A DNA stretch of 64,000 nt from a virus (Duplodnaviria > Caudoviricetes). This document shows positions 38,201 to 63,355 of this stretch, one piece after another (position 1 is the stretch's first letter; each line of letters begins with the position of its first letter). Both the position numbers and the translations under genes were made by a program. The stretch is taken from IMG/VR virus record IMGVR_UViG_2847680403_000002, positions 2,885 to 66,884 of that record; one strand, 5' to 3'. Below the pieces are notes generated by a model. The model saw nothing but the letters and a program-made list of their open reading frames with translations, was not told the DNA's origin and ran no database searches.

Positions 38201-38931
38201 ATGAGCGACTTGTTCGCCGTTGCTGGCGCGAAATTCTACATCGGCGCTGCCGCCATGGCTGCGCCTTCGACTGATGTTGCGGCGGCGGATTTTGCTGCCG
38301 TGACCTGGACTGAAGTTGTCGACTGGACCCAGTGCGGCCAGATCGGCGACACCGCTGCACTCATCACGACCCAGGTGATCAGCCGTGGCCGTGACGTGAA
38401 GCAGAAGGGCACGCGCAATGCGGGCTCGATGCAGAACGTCTTCGCGATCAACTCCAGCGATCCGGGCCAAATCGCTCTGATCGCAGCGGAAAAGACCCGC
38501 AACAACTATCCCTTCAAGATCCAGTGGGATGACGCACCGGGTGCCGTGCCGTTCGCCGCCACGATCACGATCGCGAGCCCGGGTGTCATCACCAAGGTTG
38601 CGCACGGCCTGACTGCGGTCGTGAGGTCGTTTTCTCGACCACTGGTGCCCTGCCGACCGGCCTTGTCGCCGGCACCAAGTACTACGTGAAGACGACGCCC
38701 GACGCCGACACCTTCACAGTCTCGGCGACGCTCGGCGGCGCTGCAATCGCCACTACCGGCACCCAGAGCGGCACCCATACGGTGACACCGACGCCGCTCG
38801 GCACAGTGAACTACTGGATCGGTCTCGTGATGTCGGCACAGCAGGCCGGTGGCGGCCCGAACACCGTGCGCAGCCTCAACGCCAACGTCGAGGTGAACAC
38901 CAACGTCGTGACCGTCAACCCGACCGTCTGA
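38201..38931 (+). pseudogene. Major tail tube protein with an inserted beta domain, frameshifted at ~38615-38618 (mutation or sequencing error)
   Basis: Adding one G at GCGG gives continuous HGLTAGREVVFSTTGALPTGLVAGTKYYVKTTPDADTF... joining ORFs 38201..38689 and 38686..38931. Confidence 0.75.
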
Positions 38932-51130: not shown

Positions 51131-51444
51131 TGGGCGACCTTACTCGTCGGCTCTTTCTTCGCCATTCCCTCGCTGTCGGCGCAACTGCATCCGTTGCCGT
51201 GCCTGCATCGAGCGGAGCAACAGCACCGAGACCGGTGCGAGACGTTATCGAAGAACTGGAGGGCCTAATCGCCCAACAGACCGGTGTGCGCTGGTCGGTG
51301 TTTCTCGCTGCCAACGAAGCGATTGTTATAGACGACCACCCGAGGATGCCGACGATCGCTTTTGGTCGCCGGGATGACGCCGAATTCTGGAGCAACAAGT
51401 ACGGCGTGCTCGGGCTTCCGAACTACGGTTGGAGGGTGTTGTGA
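51127..51444 (+). CDS. Protein with twin-arginine-like N-terminus
   Basis: LTRRLFLRHSLAVGATASVA. Confidence 0.7.
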   Translation: MMGDLTRRLFLRHSLAVGATASVAVPASSGATAPRPVRDVIEELEGLIAQQTGVRWSVFLAANEAIVIDDHPRMPTIAFGRRDDAEFWSNKYGVLGLPNYGWRVL

Positions 51445-51764
51445 TGAACAAACTCACTCGCCGTTCCATGGTGAAAGCCATTCCGGCCTGCGGCATGGCG
51501 GCTATCGTGCCGAGTGCAGCAACAGCTATTGGTCCCGACAACTCTGTTTTGGAGGCGATCTCAGAATGGCGCGCCGCCTACCGCCTCGCTGAAACGACGA
51601 ATGCGGCGTGGCGAAAGAGCGAGAAATCCAGAAAGATTTTCCCTGGCTTTTCTACGCCCGAGGGTGACGTCGCTTACGACGCGGCCGTCGCAGAAAGCAA
51701 GGCACGCAACAAACTGCTTTGGGCCATTCTAGGCGAACAACCCGCCTTTGTGATCTCGGCGTGA
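51444..51764 (+). CDS. Protein with twin-arginine-like N-terminus
   Basis: MNKLTRRSMVKAIPACGMAAIVPSAATA. Confidence 0.7.
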   Translation: MNKLTRRSMVKAIPACGMAAIVPSAATAIGPDNSVLEAISEWRAAYRLAETTNAAWRKSEKSRKIFPGFSTPEGDVAYDAAVAESKARNKLLWAILGEQPAFVISA

Positions 51765-51773
51765 TTGGAGGCG

Positions 51774-52199
51774 ATGATGGCAAAAATCACCCGTCGCACT
51801 ATCATGAAATCGATCCCCACCTACGGGTTGGCGGCTGTCGTTCCGGCCACTGCTGCGGCCATGGATAGTCCAGATCGCCAGTTGCTGGCCCTCGGCGTCG
51901 AATTCGAAGCGAGGTGGAGCGCGGAACGCGCTGTCTATGAGGCGGAAAAGGGACAGGACACTCACGAATCGGACGAGCGTTGCAACGCAGCCGCTAGGCA
52001 GACGCGGGAAGTTGTCGAGTTGATGACTGGCCATACCGCAAAGACGTTGGCCGGCTATCGTTTGCTGGCGCGCGCCTACGTTTGGTGTCGTGGCGAAAAT
52101 CCCGATCAACCGATGGCTGTCTCTTTGGATGGCCCTTACGACACAACCGACAAAGCCATCAGATCCAATCTGATCAACAGCCTGCTCGGCCACATCTGA
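51774..52199 (+). CDS. Protein with twin-arginine-like N-terminus
   Basis: MAKITRRTIMKSIPTYGLAAVVPATAAA...DRQLLALG. Confidence 0.7.
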   Translation: MMAKITRRTIMKSIPTYGLAAVVPATAAAMDSPDRQLLALGVEFEARWSAERAVYEAEKGQDTHESDERCNAAARQTREVVELMTGHTAKTLAGYRLLARAYVWCRGENPDQPMAVSLDGPYDTTDKAIRSNLINSLLGHI

Positions 52200-52325
52200 A
52201 CAACTGAATTCCCCGCTGCCATGGGGATGTAACGCGAACGACGAGCTTCTTCGGCTCCGGCGTTCGTGAAAGCGAACCCCAGTGCGTTACCGGGCTTGGC
52301 AGGCCGGACGCCGAAGGAGACCAAA

Positions 52326-52994
52326 ATGCCAATCGCAAAAAAGAATGCGGCACCGCTGTCCGATGCGGGGATAGAGTTGCCACCGCTGATGATCGACCTC
52401 CTGCAGGTAACCCTGATCGGGGATAGCCCACTCATTGTTCATGCTTGGTCCGCCAAGGCCAAGAAGGAAATGCTCGACAAGCAGATGAAGGTGGCCAAGC
52501 CGGCGAAAGAGGCCAAGGACCCGCGTGCCGACTTTGAGGCAAGCATGTACCGTCTGGCTGACGGCGGCTACGGTTTCCCATCGGTAGCGTTCAAGAACGC
52601 CGCTGTCACGGCCGGCACTTCAGTTGCCGGGCTCACTAAGATCCAGGCACGGCAGGCATTTCACATTCTCGGAGAGGACGCCGATATCGAAGGTGCTTTC
52701 GAGGGGGCAATCTCTCGGGTCAATCTCGTTCGTATCGAAGGCGGTGAGCCGACGATGCGCGAAGATATGGTTCGAGTTGGTATGGGAACTGCGGATCTCA
52801 GGTATCGACCCGAGTTCACAAACTGGAAAACCACCATTCTGGTGCGCTTCAATCGCAACGTGTTGAGCGAGGCGCAAATCCTCAACCTTCTCAATGTCGC
52901 TGGTTTCGCCGTCGGCGTAGGTGAGTGGCGGCCGGAGAAAGACGGTCAGTATGGAATGTTCCATGTGGCCACCGAAAAGGATCTGGCCCCATGA
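52326..52994 (+). CDS. Solo Cas7/RAMP-like protein (222 aa)
   Basis: VTLIGDSPLIVH (RAMP beta1), YGFPSVAFKNAA (IPGSSxKG-like), C-terminal Gly-rich loop GFAVGVGEWRPEKDGQYGMFHV; AAGGAG RBS. Confidence 0.75.
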   Translation: MPIAKKNAAPLSDAGIELPPLMIDLLQVTLIGDSPLIVHAWSAKAKKEMLDKQMKVAKPAKEAKDPRADFEASMYRLADGGYGFPSVAFKNAAVTAGTSVAGLTKIQARQAFHILGEDADIEGAFEGAISRVNLVRIEGGEPTMREDMVRVGMGTADLRYRPEFTNWKTTILVRFNRNVLSEAQILNLLNVAGFAVGVGEWRPEKDGQYGMFHVATEKDLAP

Positions 52995-53515
52995 CCGCAA
53001 AGGCAAAGAATGCACCGAAAATAATCGGCTTTGAGTTTGCGCCAGGAGCTAGGTTCCAATCTGGCGATCATCCCGACGCCAACGAAGTCGGGCGGCATAT
53101 GGAGATGCTGCGGGAGACGTATAGGGGAGAGTTGACCCCCGACGACGTTCTGACGGATGCGGCCAATCCAAATAGCCCACTTCATTCCTTCTTCGAGTGG
53201 GATGACACGGAGGCGGCTCGGCTTCATCGTTTGGCACAAGCTCGCGGCCTCATTCGGGCAGTGGTTGCCGTCTATAAACAGCCGGAACAACCTGTGCGGC
53301 GCATGCGAGCGTACGTTCATATCAACGAACCCGGAACCCCTCACTATCGAGAGGTTGGGCACGCAATGTCGGTCAAATCGACCCGCGATATCGTCCTGAA
53401 AACTGCGTGGCGAGAATTCCAGCAATGGCGCCAACGCTATAAGGACCTGAAAGAGTTCGCCGACCTCTTTGAGGTTGCGGATGAAATCGGCCAAAAGCTG
53501 CTTCAAAAGCAGTGA
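52991..53515 (+). CDS. Helical partner protein coupled to the RAMP-like gene
   Basis: ATGA overlap; LTPDDVLTDAANPNSPLHSFFEWDDTEAARLHRLAQARGLI. Confidence 0.8.
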   Translation: MTAKAKNAPKIIGFEFAPGARFQSGDHPDANEVGRHMEMLRETYRGELTPDDVLTDAANPNSPLHSFFEWDDTEAARLHRLAQARGLIRAVVAVYKQPEQPVRRMRAYVHINEPGTPHYREVGHAMSVKSTRDIVLKTAWREFQQWRQRYKDLKEFADLFEVADEIGQKLLQKQ

Positions 53516-53540
53516 AATGCGCGGAGCCGGATGCCCGTCC

Positions 53541-53640
53541 GGCTGGCGAGGATCAAGGTATGGCAGGCAAGGCAAGTAATGGTTGGGTAAGTCAAGTCTA
53601 GGTTAGGCCCGGCGAGACTCTCTTCGGCAGGAATAGGGCC
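53541..53640 (+). ncRNA. Candidate guide-like RNA of GGY-NN pentamer repeats
   Basis: 5-nt periodic G from 53566: GGC-AA GGC-AA GTA-AT GGT-TG GGT-AA GTC-AA GTC-TA GGT-TA GGC-CC GGC-GA GAC-TC TCT-TC GGC-AG; bounded by GGCAGG. Confidence 0.65.
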
Positions 53641-53651
53641 AACTGCAATTT

Positions 53652-53676
53652 AGGCGGCTTTCAGGCCGCCTTTTTC
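53652..53676 (+). terminator. Intrinsic terminator closing the RAMP cassette
   Basis: AGGCGGC-tttcag-GCCGCCT then TTTTC. Confidence 0.85.
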
Positions 53677-53696
53677 TTATCTTGAAAGGACAATCC

Positions 53697-54527
53697 ATGA
53701 CGAACGTGCTCCCAGGCACGGCGACTGCTGCCGTGCGCGACAAATTCTGGGTCTACCGCCCGATGCTCGATCTCATCGGCCGCTCTGAGGGCACCGACAA
53801 GGGGCGGGGCTATAACGAGACCCTTGGCTATGGCGCCTACACCGGCGGCGACGTGGATCTCGTGAGCATGACGCTCGACCAGATCGACGCGTTGCAGACG
53901 AAGATGCTGGCGAACCGGAGGAACAAGCTGAAGTCTTCGGCGCTCGGCCGGTACCAGATCATCCGCACCACGCTCCGCACGATGCGTCAGCAGCTTGGGC
54001 TCACCGGCCGGGAGAAGTTCGACGCCGACATGCAGGACCGTCTGGCCTGCTATCTCCTCGGCCAGCGCGGCATCGACAAGTGGCTCGCTGACCGGCTGAA
54101 GCTGGAAACCCTCATCGGCAATCTGGCGCAGGAGTGGGCATCAATCCCGAAGCCGAACGGAAAGGGGCATTACGAGGGGCAGAACGCCGGCGTGTCCGTG
54201 TCCATGGTCAAGGCTGCACTCGCTGAGGTCGCACGCCGTCACGCCGAGGGTCTGCCGAAGGTCGTCGAGAAGGTGCCTGTCACGGTCGAAACGCCAGTCG
54301 TGCCGAAGGAGGTCGACAAGGAGGTGAAGAAGAAGACCGGGCTGTGGGGCTGGCTGACTACGATCTTCGGCAGCGGCGGCGCTGGTCTCGCCGGGTTCCT
54401 CGGCGCCGACTGGCAGACCGTCCTCGCTATCGGTGCGGTCGCCCTGGGCGTGCTTCTCCTCCTCATCCTGCTTCGCCGACAGATCATCGGGGCGGTGCAG
54501 GACATCCGCGGCGCAGTCGAGGGCTGA
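53697..54527 (+). CDS. Endolysin (lambda R-like lysozyme fold) with C-terminal hydrophobic segments
   Basis: LDLIGRSEGT...Y...SSALGRYQI...QEWASIP. Confidence 0.85.
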   Translation: MTNVLPGTATAAVRDKFWVYRPMLDLIGRSEGTDKGRGYNETLGYGAYTGGDVDLVSMTLDQIDALQTKMLANRRNKLKSSALGRYQIIRTTLRTMRQQLGLTGREKFDADMQDRLACYLLGQRGIDKWLADRLKLETLIGNLAQEWASIPKPNGKGHYEGQNAGVSVSMVKAALAEVARRHAEGLPKVVEKVPVTVETPVVPKEVDKEVKKKTGLWGWLTTIFGSGGAGLAGFLGADWQTVLAIGAVALGVLLLLILLRRQIIGAVQDIRGAVEG

Positions 54528-54529
54528 CC

Positions 54530-54781
54530 ATGTGGGCCTTCCTCACCTCCAGGCTCGGGGTGTCCATCATTTGCGGATTGGCCGTTACCGCCATCCTCGG
54601 CTGGACCCACTACGAGATGTACGAGACAGGCCGAGCCTATGAGCGCTCGGCCATGCTCAACCGATCCGTGATCATTCTCCGCGAAAGGAGCAAAACCGAT
54701 GCCGCAGTTTCTGCGATGGATGATGCTGGGCTGTGCGCTGCTCTCGGTGGCCGCATGTCAGACGCCGGCTCCTGTGAGTGA
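54530..54781 (+). CDS. Putative inner-membrane spanin (Rz-like)
   Basis: N-terminal TM; overlaps the lipoprotein gene. Confidence 0.6.
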   Translation: MWAFLTSRLGVSIICGLAVTAILGWTHYEMYETGRAYERSAMLNRSVIILRERSKTDAAVSAMDDAGLCAALGGRMSDAGSCE

Positions 54782-54911
54782 GTGCGACGGTTGGGCAAAG
54801 CTGAAGCCGAGCGCCGATACCCGTCGCGAGATCATCGCCAAGGATCGGCCGTTCGCTGAGCAGGTGGCGAGCCACAATCAATTCGGCGCTAAGCGCGGGT
54901 GCTGGAAATAG
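54699..54911 (+). CDS. Putative outer-membrane spanin lipoprotein (Rz1-like)
   Basis: Lipobox LSVAAC. Confidence 0.65.
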   Translation: MPQFLRWMMLGCALLSVAACQTPAPVSECDGWAKLKPSADTRREIIAKDRPFAEQVASHNQFGAKRGCWK

Positions 54912-54917
54912 GGGCAC

Positions 54918-55352
54918 ATGGTGAGCGACATGACCAGATCAGAGCAGATCGTAAATAGCGTCATCATCACGGCTATAGCCAGGGTGGCAATGGTGTTCGC
55001 CTTGCCGGCGATCTATGCGGCGTTCCAACTCTATTCGAGCCTACAGGCGGCCACGCTCGACCGCATGAAAACCGACCTCACCAGCCAGATCCTGGCCGCT
55101 CAGGCCGTGGCTTCAAGTGCGCAGTCCTCGGCATCGGACGCGTCGACAGCGACGGTTGGTCTATCTACGCGCCTCACTGCAGTAGAGACCAAGCAGTCGG
55201 AAGCGGCGACGTCGAATGAGAAGTTCCAGACGGCCACGCTCAATCGCCTGGATAGAGTTCAGGATTCGATTGTCGGGCTCTCCAACACAGTGGCTGCTCT
55301 GACGGCTACCCTTCAAGCCGTTGTTGACGAGAAGCGTCGGCGGCCACCGTGA
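54918..55352 (+). CDS. Membrane-anchored coiled-coil protein (possible holin/lysis accessory)
   Basis: One TM plus coiled coil, last gene of lysis operon. Confidence 0.55.
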   Translation: MVSDMTRSEQIVNSVIITAIARVAMVFALPAIYAAFQLYSSLQAATLDRMKTDLTSQILAAQAVASSAQSSASDASTATVGLSTRLTAVETKQSEAATSNEKFQTATLNRLDRVQDSIVGLSNTVAALTATLQAVVDEKRRRPP

Positions 55353-55424
55353 CACTTGCGCTCGCCACATTGGCCTCCTATCTCGCTTGCCGCACTCGCT
55401 TTCGTCGAGCGCGCCTCAGGTAAC

Positions 55425-55458
55425 GCCCGCTCCGGTTCGCCGGGGCGGGCTTTTTTTG
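55425..55458 (+). terminator. Intrinsic terminator
   Basis: GCCCGCTCCGG-ttcg-CCGGGGCGGGC followed by a T tract. Confidence 0.85.
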
Positions 55459-55518
55459 CGTTAGGCTGGCGCTTCATGCTCAGCCTTTCTCGCAGTCTTA
55501 TGGGGTCGAAATATTCGG

Positions 55519-56013
55519 CTATTGGCCTCTAGAATCATCAGTGAGGGCGTCTAATGGCTTTCCGTTCAAAGTTGCGCCCTCAAAACGGCAGTTCGTGAAC
55601 GCGACGCCTGCCAGGTCAATATTGTCGAAGCGGCTCCCAGAGAGGTTCACGTCATTGACATTCCAATTACGCATGTCGACGTCGTTGAATGTTGCGGCTG
55701 AGAGATTCACTTGATCAAACATCGCTCTTGAGAAGTTGACGTCGAGGAACTTGGACTCCGATAGGTTGGCGTCGCTCGCGTCCAATTTTTCGGCCGTCTT
55801 GTGAAGTTCGATTACGTCGCCCAGCACTGAAAATGACAAGCGCTTGTCCGTGCTGTCTCTACCGATCGTTGCGGATAATCTGTTCCAATCTTTCATACCG
55901 AATTGCTTTGCGATGAGTTCGAGACACTCGCTGTGGGACAGGTCAATTTGGCGAGCGCTGAGGTTCTCGCGCAAGGATTTTGCCATGCTCTTGATGCTTG
56001 CAGAGCTAAACAT
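55519..56013 (-). CDS. Glyoxalase_8-type N-terminal domain fused to pentapeptide repeats
   Basis: KSMAKSLR...SHSECLELIAKQFG..DWNRLSA, then ANLSESKFLDVNFSRAMFDQVNLSAATF... Confidence 0.8.
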   Translation of the reverse strand: MFSSASIKSMAKSLRENLSARQIDLSHSECLELIAKQFGMKDWNRLSATIGRDSTDKRLSFSVLGDVIELHKTAEKLDASDANLSESKFLDVNFSRAMFDQVNLSAATFNDVDMRNWNVNDVNLSGSRFDNIDLAGVAFTNCRFEGATLNGKPLDALTDDSRGQ

Positions 56014-63278: not shown

Positions 63279-63355
63279 GGTCCCGTAGCTCAGCTGGATA
63301 GAGCACCGGCCTTCTAAGCCGATGGTCACAGGTTCGAATCCTGTCGGGATCGCCA
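63279..63355 (+). tRNA. tRNA-Arg(UCU)
   Basis: Complete cloverleaf, anticodon loop CTTCTAA, GGTTCGAATCC, CCA end. Confidence 0.96.

What the first reader, a model, noticed from the sequence alone, without database searches (positions are those of the whole stretch)
53541..53640. Pentamer array may encode a gapped target sequence
Seen: between two GGCAGG boxes (53562-67, 53626-31) lie 12 pentamers, 11 starting with G and 7 with GGY. Their dinucleotides read AA AA AT TG AA AA TA TA CC GA TC TC, unusually AT-rich for this phage. A shorter unit (GGCTGGC-GA-GGA-TC-AA-GGT-AT) precedes it. Inference: the dinucleotides could be a discontinuous guide, e.g. AAnAAnATnTGnAAnAAnTAnTAnCCnGAnTCnTC or its complement. 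Skipping every third base would tolerate codon wobble. I found no match in this window by eye, which would fit an external target.
Basis: partly seen in the sequence, partly recalled or inferred. Interest (0 to 1): 0.8.

Follow-up and report, generated by a model that had tools for sequence, protein, structure and literature searches.

The report
Single-guide VIPR RNA in rhizobial prophage

Summary
The 12 pentamers (53566-53625) lie between two GGCAGG boxes, after a conserved hairpin leader and before an intrinsic terminator. They sit directly downstream of two co-oriented genes.

The first gene (52326-52994) is a Vipr protein. Its family profile hits PDB 36pp "SUSP1 Vipr protein" at E=4e-14. 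Its AlphaFold model (pLDDT 95) matches Csm3/Cas7 RAMPs.

In 80 related viral contigs the same gene is followed by same-strand G-[G/T]-Y-N-N arrays. I found 385 chains on that strand against 4 on the opposite strand. Units overlap by 1 nt at GGCAG|G, which is the "staggered" VIPR array of bioRxiv 10.64898/2026.04.26.720920.

[quoted passage not shown] Hits are mostly in codon phase with the skipped base at wobble.

It is the published VIPR code.

No target was found for this window's own single, AT-rich guide. I searched its own genome, 401 family genomes, 121 genus genomes, IMG/VR, GTDB representatives and metagenomes.

Rival guides do hit this prophage's vap gene and its major-tail-protein gene.

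This scan had met the same kind of array before on other DNA (note e1-5939464). Verdict: new member of a known kind.

The parts
52326..52994 (+). vipr gene: a minimal RAMP / Cas7-like protein of 222 aa. An alternative GTG start lies at 52266.
   Evidence: Family profile A1 hits PDB 36pp_D 'SUSP1 Vipr protein' at E=4e-14, covering profile positions 25-204 of 210. The AF2 model has pLDDT 95.4. Foldseek top hits are Csm3/Cas7 chains, with 8do6_E at E=3.1e-6. In the alignment, H39, R161, E200, W201 and R202 align with SUSP1 H17, R138, D177, W178 and R179, the GGY-contacting residues named. PHROG match is phrog_4652, function unknown.
52991..53515 (+). Candidate vap (vipr-accessory) gene, 174 aa, ATGA-coupled to vipr.
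   Evidence: ORF. It matches phrog_15946 at 4.7e-22, function unknown, and no Pfam family. In one search the ORF that ends just upstream of the first array chain was extracted from the related loci: 58 distinct ORFs. Most are relatives of this protein. In at least 4 loci (L097, L100, L114, L120) that ORF is vipr itself, so no vap lies between vipr and the array. 28 of the relatives were aligned as A4. There is no solved relative; the best PDB hit has E=0.89. Atlas neighbours are viral hypothetical proteins.
53525..53544 (+). Leader hairpin, AGCCGGAT-GCCC-GTCCGGCT.
   Evidence: RNAfold gives -13.7 kcal/mol for this hairpin. 19 of 19 leaders that carry the motif (16 distinct sequences) fold to a 6-9 bp hairpin at the same place, although the stem letters differ.
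53545..53561 (+). Conserved leader spacer, GGCGAGGATCAAGGTAT.
   Evidence: These columns are invariant or at least 90% conserved in the alignment of 20 leaders, A3. It is not a variable guide.
53562..53567 (+). 5' boundary box GGCAG|G. Its last G of GGCAG is shared with the first pentamer of the guide.
   Evidence: In related arrays 211 of 224 junctions between successive units are 1-nt overlaps.
53566..53625 (+). The single vrRNA guide unit. It has 12 pentamers with NN = AA AA AT TG AA AA TA TA CC GA TC TC. The last two pentamers (GACTC, TCTTC) lack GGY.
   Evidence: Unit length falls within the 7-19 pentamers seen in 350 related units and within the 9-16 repeats reported for vrRNAs.
53626..53631 (+). 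3' boundary box GGCAG|G.
   Evidence: The spacing to the first box is 64 nt, which is 13x5-1, following the same 5k-1 rule as in related arrays.
53632..53651 (+). Short non-periodic trailer.
   Evidence: Unlike most related arrays, no further pentamer unit follows the last box.
53652..53677 (+). Intrinsic terminator: an 8-bp stem with 6 G-C pairs, then a T-run.

Best explanation
The array is the guide-RNA (vrRNA) gene of a prophage-borne VIPR system of the 'staggered array' kind, reduced here to one guide.

Inferred course of events:
1. The region is transcribed on the + strand, probably together with vipr and vap, and ends at the terminator at 53652-53677.
2. Vipr protomers bind one per pentamer. 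They hold G-G/T-Y and expose the two N bases.
3. The filament pairs those dinucleotides with double-stranded DNA that carries the same dinucleotides separated by one skipped base (AAnAAnATnTGnAAnAAnTAnTAnCCnGA...).
4. Binding silences transcription of a competing mobile element.

Shown here: the Vipr homology, the array grammar, the strand and position, NN hypervariability, and the 1-nt-skip, codon-phased match rule at clade level.

Taken from the papers, not shown here: filament formation, DNA binding and repression.

Not shown: expression, processing at GGCAG|G, the role of the leader hairpin and of vap, and the target of this guide.
For: (1) Neighbour gene is a Vipr. The profile hits the solved SUSP1 Vipr at E=4e-14 over nearly its full length. 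The model has a RAMP fold, with 68 Foldseek hits at E<=1e-3 led by Csm3/Cas7. Residues that contact GGY in SUSP1 are conserved in the alignment.

(2) Grammar. When 23 units from 9 loci are cut only at GGCAG boxes, position 1 is G in 93%, position 2 is G 75% / T 20%, position 3 is C 59% / T 35%, and positions 4-5 are variable. In 350 unique chains, positions 4-5 have 1.94 and 1.96 bits of entropy.

(3) Placement. Among 83 sequences carrying the gene, there are 385 chains on the vipr strand against 4 on the other strand. Most lie about 550 nt downstream of vipr, after vap.

(4) Staggering. Box spacings are 39, 44, 49, 54, 59 and 64 nt. 211 of 224 junctions overlap by 1 nt. This matches the legend of fig. 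S18.

(5) Skip rule. 314 guides were scanned against 1.25 Mb of array-masked related DNA. Counts below are guides whose best hit has <=0 / <=1 / <=2 mismatches.
- skip 1: 3/12/45 for real guides, 0/2/14 for reversed guides, 0/0/19 for order-shuffled guides
- skip 0: 0/2/13
- skip 2: 0/0/13
- skip 3: 0/0/18

(6) Phase. 22 of the 24 hits at <=1 mismatch lie on the sense strand with the skipped base at codon position 3 of the longest frame.

(7) No self-target. The best match in the organism's own 6.6-Mb genome is 17/24. The paper likewise reports no self-targets.
Against: - No target was found for this guide anywhere I could search.
- In the 1.25-Mb viral set its best 1-nt-skip match has 7 mismatches, the same as its controls.
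- The last two pentamers lack GGY.
- The array has one unit, where most relatives have 2-20.
- No sigma-70-like promoter was found in 52800-54200.
- The region as a whole folds no better than shuffles, z = -0.65.
- A first small test with 23 guides showed no skip-1 enrichment.
- I could not assign the system to one of the seven published types, because supplements are closed and figures are not held.
Confidence: 0.9

Rival explanations
1. The locus is a VIPR system, but this single guide is a decaying remnant. On this view the array has shrunk to one unit, its 3' pentamers have degenerated, and its target is extinct or never existed. The RNA would then do nothing now.
For: It has one unit, against a usual 2-20. 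Two of the 12 pentamers lack GGY. No further unit follows the last box. No target was found in any collection searched.
Against: vipr and vap are full length and well conserved: 100% query coverage at 77-87% identity to many relatives. Leader, both boxes and terminator are intact. 7 of 78 loci also show one chain, and the paper describes systems with a single vrRNA. Degenerate pentamers occur inside many related units. In the paper itself a share of guides had no hit: 19 of 63 type III guides and 16 of 39 type V guides.
Confidence: 0.2
2. The RNA is a protein-binding decoy or regulatory RNA unrelated to DNA guiding. Examples would be a TRAP-like array of NAG triplets with 2-nt spacers, or an antitermination element ahead of the lysis genes.
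For: In another register the array reads as 11 NAG-like triplets with 2-nt spacers (my reading). It lies between a gene pair and a terminator just upstream of the endolysin gene.
Against: The neighbouring protein is a Vipr by sequence and by fold. The variable positions match foreign coding DNA under one specific gap rule, which a decoy would not need. The genes downstream of related arrays vary, and in some loci they are on the opposite strand. No Rfam family matches; the best hits have E of 5.8 or worse and fall below the gathering score.
Confidence: 0.03
3. It acts as DNA rather than RNA: a G-rich strand forming two-tier G-quadruplexes or R-loops, or a packaging or replication protein-binding array.
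For: GG runs spaced every 5 nt on one strand could form GG-N3-GG quadruplexes. This is inference from the sequence only.
Against: This does not explain strict linkage to a RAMP gene on the same strand (385 chains against 4), the 1-nt register slips, or the skip-1 matches to other phages' genes. Published work shows such arrays are transcribed and bound by Vipr in the SUSP1 and P. fulva systems.
Confidence: 0.03

Closest known systems
VIPR systems with 'staggered' vrRNA arrays (bioRxiv 10.64898/2026.04.26.720920, fig. S18 legend; Results, three Methods sections and legends read; figures and supplements not seen)
   Same: A Vipr homologue next to GGY/NN pentamers on the same strand. Units meet with a 1-nt overlap. 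The element is phage-borne. Guides in the clade hit rival phages' genes and rival VIPR loci.
   Different: This locus carries one unit only, so nothing is actually staggered here. According to the paper's text, staggered arrays were not among the architectures confirmed by small-RNA sequencing. I could not tell which of types I-VII this clade belongs to.
Type II VIPR of Escherichia phage SUSP1 (PDB 36pp; bioRxiv 10.64898/2026.04.26.720927)
   Same: Homologous Vipr (E=4e-14). Conserved H, R and W-R residues that hold GGY. 12 repeats per guide. The 1-nt-skip rule with the skipped base at wobble.
   Different: The SUSP1 protein aligns only at profile level. SUSP1 vrRNAs are separate ~100-nt RNAs, each capped by a conserved 3' tail with a pseudoknot. 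Here there is no per-unit tail. Instead there is one 5' leader hairpin, GGCAG|G boxes and one terminator. Position 2 is T in about 17-20% of pentamers. The accessory protein family has no recognisable relative among solved structures.
Class 1 CRISPR-Cas backbone (Cas7 / Csm3 / Cmr4 filaments on crRNA)
   Same: RAMP fold. According to the papers, there is one protomer per RNA repeat interval, with a thumb that flips bases out.
   Different: Among the seven ORFs of 51429-56013 scanned against Pfam and PHROGs, none matched a cas family. I did not run a dedicated scan for a CRISPR repeat-spacer array or for other cas genes across the window. The period is 5 nt with 2 pairing bases, rather than 6 nt with 5. 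The target is double-stranded DNA read with gaps.
TRAP-binding (G/U)AG-NN repeats of Bacillus trp leader (recalled, not searched)
   Same: An RNA with a 5-nt period made of a 3-nt protein-held motif plus a 2-nt spacer.
   Different: In TRAP sites the spacer carries no information. Here the 2-nt positions carry the specificity. The partner protein is a RAMP, not a TRAP ring.

Membership tests
VIPR system | A Vipr protein: a minimal RAMP with RRM core, G-loop and thumb | tested here: met
   The profile hits PDB 36pp_D SUSP1 Vipr at E=4e-14. The AF2 model has pLDDT 95.4. Foldseek top hits are Csm3/Cas7, with probability 1.00 and TM 0.4-0.5. The G-loop GVGEWRP aligns with SUSP1 GVGDWRP.
VIPR system | A vrRNA of tandem YNNGG (GGY/NN) repeats, about 9-16 per guide, next to vipr | tested here: met
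   There are 12 pentamers plus a terminal GGCAG at 53566-53630, 50 nt after the vap stop and on the same strand. 7 of the 12 are strict GGY, and 10 of 12 fit G[GT]Y.
VIPR system | GGY conserved and NN hypervariable across homologous arrays | tested here: met
   Units cut at boxes only give G 93%, G/T 95% and Y 94% at positions 1-3, with positions 4-5 mixed. In 3427 pentamers, positions 4-5 carry 1.94 and 1.96 bits of entropy. In one search, positions 1-3 lean on the detector used to find the chains.
VIPR system | NN bases match natural targets under the 1-nt-skip rule, with the skipped base mostly at wobble | tested here: inconclusive
   Met for the clade: skip 1 gives 12 guides at <=1 mismatch against 2 and 0 in controls, and 22 of 24 hits are in phase. 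Not met for this window's guide, for which no credible target was found.
VIPR system | A vipr-accessory (vap) gene | tested here: inconclusive
   A conserved 174-aa partner gene is present. Whether it is one of the published vap1-6 could not be checked: the supplements are closed and it has no Pfam or PDB relative.
VIPR system | The vrRNA is expressed, bound by Vipr, and represses target DNA | not testable with these tools
   No RNA run was listed for this DNA. This needs bench work.
Staggered vrRNA array | Successive vrRNAs overlap by 1 nt | tested here: inconclusive
   In relatives, 211 of 224 junctions overlap by 1 nt. The window has both GGCAG|G boxes, 64 nt apart (13x5-1), but only one unit, so no second guide is staggered against it.
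CRISPR-Cas | A repeat-spacer array with further cas genes (cas1, cas2, a large subunit or a nuclease) | not tested
   I did not scan the window for CRISPR repeats or cas genes. Among the seven ORFs of 51429-56013 scanned, none matched a cas family in Pfam or PHROGs. The first-stage note e1-6201547 says none is present.

The most novel reading that the evidence does not exclude
In this rhizobial clade, guide boundaries may be set by the 1-nt register slip at GGCAG|G rather than by a per-guide structured tail. A single 5' leader hairpin would then serve as the loading or capping signal for the whole transcript.

Guides also appear to be drawn almost only from the sense strand in codon phase. By the longest-frame criterion this holds for 23 of the 45 best hits at <=2 mismatches. 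In 11 more, the longest frame is one I take to be the antisense shadow of that same phase. Only 5 are antisense in phase.

Together these would point to a guide-making or guide-selecting process tied to coding sequence. That process would be an unknown 'adaptation' route for VIPR. The one-guide locus in this window would be the minimal natural substrate on which to test it.
Probability: 0.12. Interest if true: 0.75.

Novelty: new member of a known kind. Interest (0 to 1): 0.35.

Why it matters
This places a working-looking VIPR locus in a rhizobial prophage. It is only two genes, one leader, one guide and one terminator in about 1.4 kb. That makes it a compact natural test case for the staggered-array clade, which by the paper's own text has not been confirmed by RNA sequencing.

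The clade-level test here extends the 1-nt-skip, wobble-tolerant code to this group using independent controls.

It also shows an arms race. Rival guides hit the conserved vap gene and the major-tail-protein gene of this very prophage.

It does not change the concept, which 2026 preprints already establish.

Tried and rejected
Before I learned of VIPR, I considered a TRAP-like ring-binding RNA, a lambda-Q-like late antitermination layout, a G-quadruplex or R-loop element, a rut or anti-Rho site, and a pac site (notes 1-2). I dropped these once the neighbouring gene proved to be a Vipr.

Searches around the element that gave nothing useful:
- Rfam returned nothing at gathering score. The best hit was ar9 at 18.5 bits against a threshold of 45.
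- ARAGORN found only a tRNA-Arg at 63279-63355.
- Whole-region folds on both strands are no better than shuffles, z = -0.65 and -0.69.
- blastn of the intergenic DNA found nothing in plasmids. In phages only the lysozyme gene matched.
- Tandem Repeats Finder does not see the array.
- Single-sequence AlphaFold failed, with pLDDT 35.
- Papers 10.64898/2026.10.15.759431 and 10.64898/2026.10.21.760802 were searched by terms only. They hold nothing on rhizobial or staggered arrays.

Target hunt for the window's guide:
- Own genome: best 17/24 at skip 1. The only 24/24 is the array itself at skip 3.
- 401 family genomes at <=3 mismatches of 24: 0 hits, and 0 for the control.
- 121 genomes of the genus at <=2 mismatches of 20: 0 hits, and 0 for the control.
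- IMG/VR, exact match to the first 10 NN: 0 hits.
- Four further IMG/VR patterns, each leaving two NN free: 0, 1, 3 and 0 hits. All hits are in contigs of 28-36% GC and out of phase.
- GTDB representatives, exact first 10 NN: 10 hits, none in Rhizobiales, in loci of 32-56% GC. Two of them (L039, L041) extend to 25/26, but the NNx frame carries stop codons. I regard these as chance.
- Metagenomes: 13 exact hits at 24-54% GC, none extending beyond 23/26. L134 lies in phase inside a 450-aa ORF of a polysaccharide-gene neighbourhood. I could not show that it is more than chance.

Other points:
- A first local test with 23 guides against 6.75 Mb showed no skip-1 enrichment. The larger test did.
- For expression, no RNA holder was listed.
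- The VIPR type could not be assigned. Figures are not held and supplements are closed; data S4 and tables S2-S3 of the first paper may settle it.

Full report
THE OBSERVATION

GGCAGG stands at 53562-53567 and 53626-53631. From 53566 there are twelve pentamers: GGCAA GGCAA GTAAT GGTTG GGTAA GTCAA GTCTA GGTTA GGCCC GGCGA GACTC TCTTC. Eleven begin with G and seven begin with GGY. The last two bases of each read AA AA AT TG AA AA TA TA CC GA TC TC.

A simple scorer for G[GT][CT]NN chains gives this stretch 8.5. None of 100 first-order Markov simulations of the window exceeded 6.0. It is the only chain of seven or more pentamers on either strand of the 64 kb.

The NN bases are 75% A+T. The window is 59% G+C, and codon positions 1-2 of its genes are 44-47% A+T.

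SETTING

The array is intergenic. Upstream on the same strand are a 222-aa ORF (52326-52994) and a 174-aa ORF (52991-53515) that overlaps it by ATGA. Downstream are a strong intrinsic terminator (53652-53677) and an endolysin-like gene (phrog_90).

The surrounding DNA is a prophage late region. It carries portal, head morphogenesis, tail terminator and major tail protein matches, and three ORFs of 1017, 1103 and 764 aa downstream of them that I did not scan.

Neither upstream ORF has a Pfam family. Both belong to PHROGs of unknown function. Rfam, tRNA scanning and whole-region folding gave nothing.

HOMOLOGOUS LOCI

A DNA search of 401 genomes of the family found two places where the 3' end of the 174-aa gene and the first 50 nt after it are conserved. 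Reading them showed the same hairpin followed by long pentamer arrays. Six IMG/VR contigs found through the 174-aa protein or the hairpin showed the same layout: the gene, then the hairpin, then GGTAGGGCAGGC, then 100-450 nt of five-base rhythm, then a G+C-rich hairpin. The genes that follow vary between contigs.

HOW I LEARNED WHAT IT IS

A look-up of this scan's earlier notes returned a follow-up on another genome (e1-5939464). It named VIPR systems and gave a preprint. I treated that as a lead and checked it.

I read the Results, three Methods sections and the figure legends of bioRxiv 10.64898/2026.04.26.720920. I also read two Results sections of 10.64898/2026.04.26.720927. According to these papers:
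- VIPR consists of a minimal RAMP protein (Vipr), an accessory gene (vap), and vrRNAs of 9-16 YNNGG repeats.
- GGY is held by the protein, and the NN pairs with double-stranded DNA.
- Every third target base is skipped, mostly at codon wobble.
- Natural targets are rival phages, satellites and other VIPR loci.
- One array form is 'staggered', with vrRNAs overlapping by 1 nt.

TESTING MEMBERSHIP

Protein. A whole-library HMMER search found 3841 clusters at 50% identity related to the 222-aa ORF. A word-seeded search found at least 7753 clusters at 90% identity, all unnamed or 'hypothetical', from Devosia, Mesorhizobium, Labrys, Agrobacterium and Rhizobium among others.

A profile of 103 of these sequences (A1) hits PDB 36pp_D, 'SUSP1 Vipr protein', at E=4e-14. 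The match covers profile positions 25-204 of 210 and chain residues 3-189 of 202. The next hit has E=0.48.

With that alignment AlphaFold gives pLDDT 95.4. Foldseek against the PDB returns Csm3/Cas7, Cmr and type VII Cas7 chains, with 68 hits at E<=1e-3 and a best of 3.1e-6.

In the alignment, window residues H39, R161, E200, W201 and R202 stand opposite SUSP1 H17, R138, D177, W178 and R179. The structural paper names these as the residues that hold G1, G2 and Y3.

Array grammar. I first cut nine loci at GGCAG only. The box spacings were 39, 44, 49, 54, 59 and 64 nt, always 5k-1. The 23 in-register units gave these compositions:
- position 1: G 93%
- position 2: G 75%, T 20%
- position 3: C 59%, T 35%
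- positions 4-5: mixed

I then fetched 80 more viral contigs through a close alignment of the protein. In the 83 sequences scanned for chains, 385 chains of seven or more pentamers lie on the vipr strand and 4 on the other. Of 224 junctions between successive units, 211 are 1-nt overlaps. Units have 7-19 pentamers, most often 10 or 11. Loci carry 1-20 units, and 7 of 78 carry one.

The window's array is therefore a minimal, single-unit member of a staggered-array clade.

Leader. It consists of a hairpin at 53525-53544 in the window, a conserved spacer, and the first GGCAG box. All 19 leaders that carry the motif (16 distinct sequences) fold to a 6-9 bp hairpin although the stem letters differ. 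This was not a formal covariation test. A second leader type, and arrays with no leader, also occur.

The skip rule in this clade. I took 314 unique guides of at least eight NN. I scanned them against 1.25 Mb of the same contigs plus the window, with the arrays masked, for gaps of 0-3 nt. Controls were the guides read backwards and the guides with their dinucleotide order shuffled. The table gives the number of guides whose best hit has at most 0, 1 or 2 mismatches.

| Gap | Real guides | Read backwards | Order shuffled |
|---|---|---|---|
| 1 nt | 3 / 12 / 45 | 0 / 2 / 14 | 0 / 0 / 19 |
| 0 nt | 0 / 2 / 13 | 0 / 0 / 17 | 0 / 0 / 16 |
| 2 nt | 0 / 0 / 13 | 0 / 1 / 9 | 1 / 1 / 17 |
| 3 nt | 0 / 0 / 18 | 0 / 2 / 12 | 0 / 0 / 16 |

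Only the 1-nt gap is enriched.

Of the 24 hits at <=1 mismatch, which come from 12 guides, 23 are on the + strand. In 22 the frame with the skipped base at codon position 3 is the longest open frame.

Among the 45 best hits at <=2 mismatches, 23 are sense and in phase by the longest-frame criterion. Another 11 have as their longest frame an antisense frame that I take to be the shadow of that same phase. The corresponding control counts are 2 and 1 of 14. The database is small and contains near-duplicate contigs, so these counts are not independent events.

WHAT THE GUIDES HIT

Several first-unit guides hit the accessory gene of other loci, at the conserved peptides GLIR(A/S)VVA(I/V)Y and AYVHINEP.

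Three guides from other contigs hit this window:
- 53246-53277 in vap, 1 mismatch of 22, in frame
- 53441-53469 in vap, 2 mismatches of 20, in frame
- 38396-38421, 0 mismatches of 18, in frame in the major-tail-protein gene (phrog_158)

Against the window alone, the hit count at <=2 mismatches was 4 for real guides at skip 1 and 1 for reversed guides. This single-window count is weak taken by itself.

THE WINDOW'S OWN GUIDE

I found no target. The searches, their controls and their chance-like hits are listed under Tried and rejected. In brief:
- Own genome: best 17/24.
- 401 family genomes and 121 genus genomes: none at <=3 of 24 and <=2 of 20 mismatches respectively.
- IMG/VR: none credible in five pattern scans.
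- GTDB representatives and metagenomes: only hits in loci of lower G+C than the window (24-56%), none in Rhizobiales where a name is given, and none extending in phase.

This fits an external target that is absent from these collections. It fits a decayed guide equally well.

The guide is in the most AT-rich 6% of guides (18 of 314). Its last two pentamers lack GGY.

MECHANISM AND WHAT REMAINS INFERRED

Shown here: the homology, the grammar, the placement, the variability pattern and the clade-level code.

Taken from the papers on SUSP1 and P. fulva systems: Vipr filaments form on the RNA, they bind gapped double-stranded DNA, and they repress transcription.

Inferred for this locus:
- co-transcription with vipr-vap, since no promoter-like site lies in 52800-54200;
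- delimitation or processing at GGCAG|G;
- a loading or capping role for the leader hairpin;
- any role of the 174-aa protein, which has no relative among solved structures and only viral hypothetical neighbours in the Atlas.

Expression could not be examined.

VERDICT

The locus is a new member of a known kind, with one guide, in a clade whose staggered arrays have not yet been confirmed by RNA sequencing according to the paper's text.

This scan had already met the same kind of array on other DNA (e1-5939464).

Noticed in passing
window 38396-38421 (+), inside ORF 38201-38689: [quoted passage not shown] The same guide also hits L076. This prophage looks like a target of a rival VIPR.
   Followed up: partly
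window 53246-53277 and 53441-53469 (+), inside vap 52991-53515: Guides from L065 (21 of 22) and L068 (18 of 20) match the accessory gene in frame, at peptides GLIRAVVAVY and KDLKEFADL. Similar first-unit guides from L066 and L089 hit vap genes of eight other loci. Anti-VIPR guides aimed at vap seem common in this clade.
   Followed up: partly
L048-L127, hits listed: Near-perfect 1-nt-skip hits are strongly biased to the sense strand in codon phase: 22 of 24 hits at <=1 mismatch. At <=2 mismatches the counts are 23 sense in phase, 11 in the frame I take to be its shadow, and 5 antisense in phase, out of 45. The paper reports targets on both strands for SUSP1. Many genes in these loci share the vipr strand, which may account for part of the bias.
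   Followed up: partly
L056, L057, L059-L061, L063, L067, L072-L075, L077, L088, L093 (70 nt before the first unit): A second conserved leader type, unlike the window's, precedes many arrays. It reads roughly GGTTAYGSCGAGAGTTCC...AACCTCG followed by a small GC hairpin, and it ends in CATGGCAGGC. Some arrays have no leader, and some follow vipr directly with no vap between (L097, L100, L114, L120).
   Followed up: no
L071 9715-9857 and 10722-10805; L099 9715-9857; L110 9650-9939: In a few loci pentamer chains also lie upstream of vipr, or between vipr and the next gene. This recalls the upstream vrRNA reported for SUSP1.
   Followed up: no
L039 1334-1371 (+) and L041 (minus strand, position 1145 of the reverse complement): Two of the ten exact 10-NN hits in GTDB representatives extend to 25 of 26 bases of the window's guide, counting the boundary AG. 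One is a Ruminococcus MAG and the other a Gammaproteobacteria MAG. The NNx frame has stop codons in both. I take them as chance in A-rich sequence, but no reversed-pattern control could be run.
   Followed up: partly
window 55519-56013 (-): A 164-aa ORF combines a Glyoxalase_8 N-terminal match (2.9e-14) with pentapeptide repeats (1.1e-12). It lies on the opposite strand just after the lysis genes and is possibly a moron.
   Followed up: no
window 53682/53698-54527 (+): The endolysin-like ORF (phrog_90, 5e-27) ends in a hydrophobic stretch (residues about 230-265 in the translation). It has a second copy elsewhere in the genome at 86% identity over 147 nt (G000:C1:6054158-6054304).
   Followed up: no
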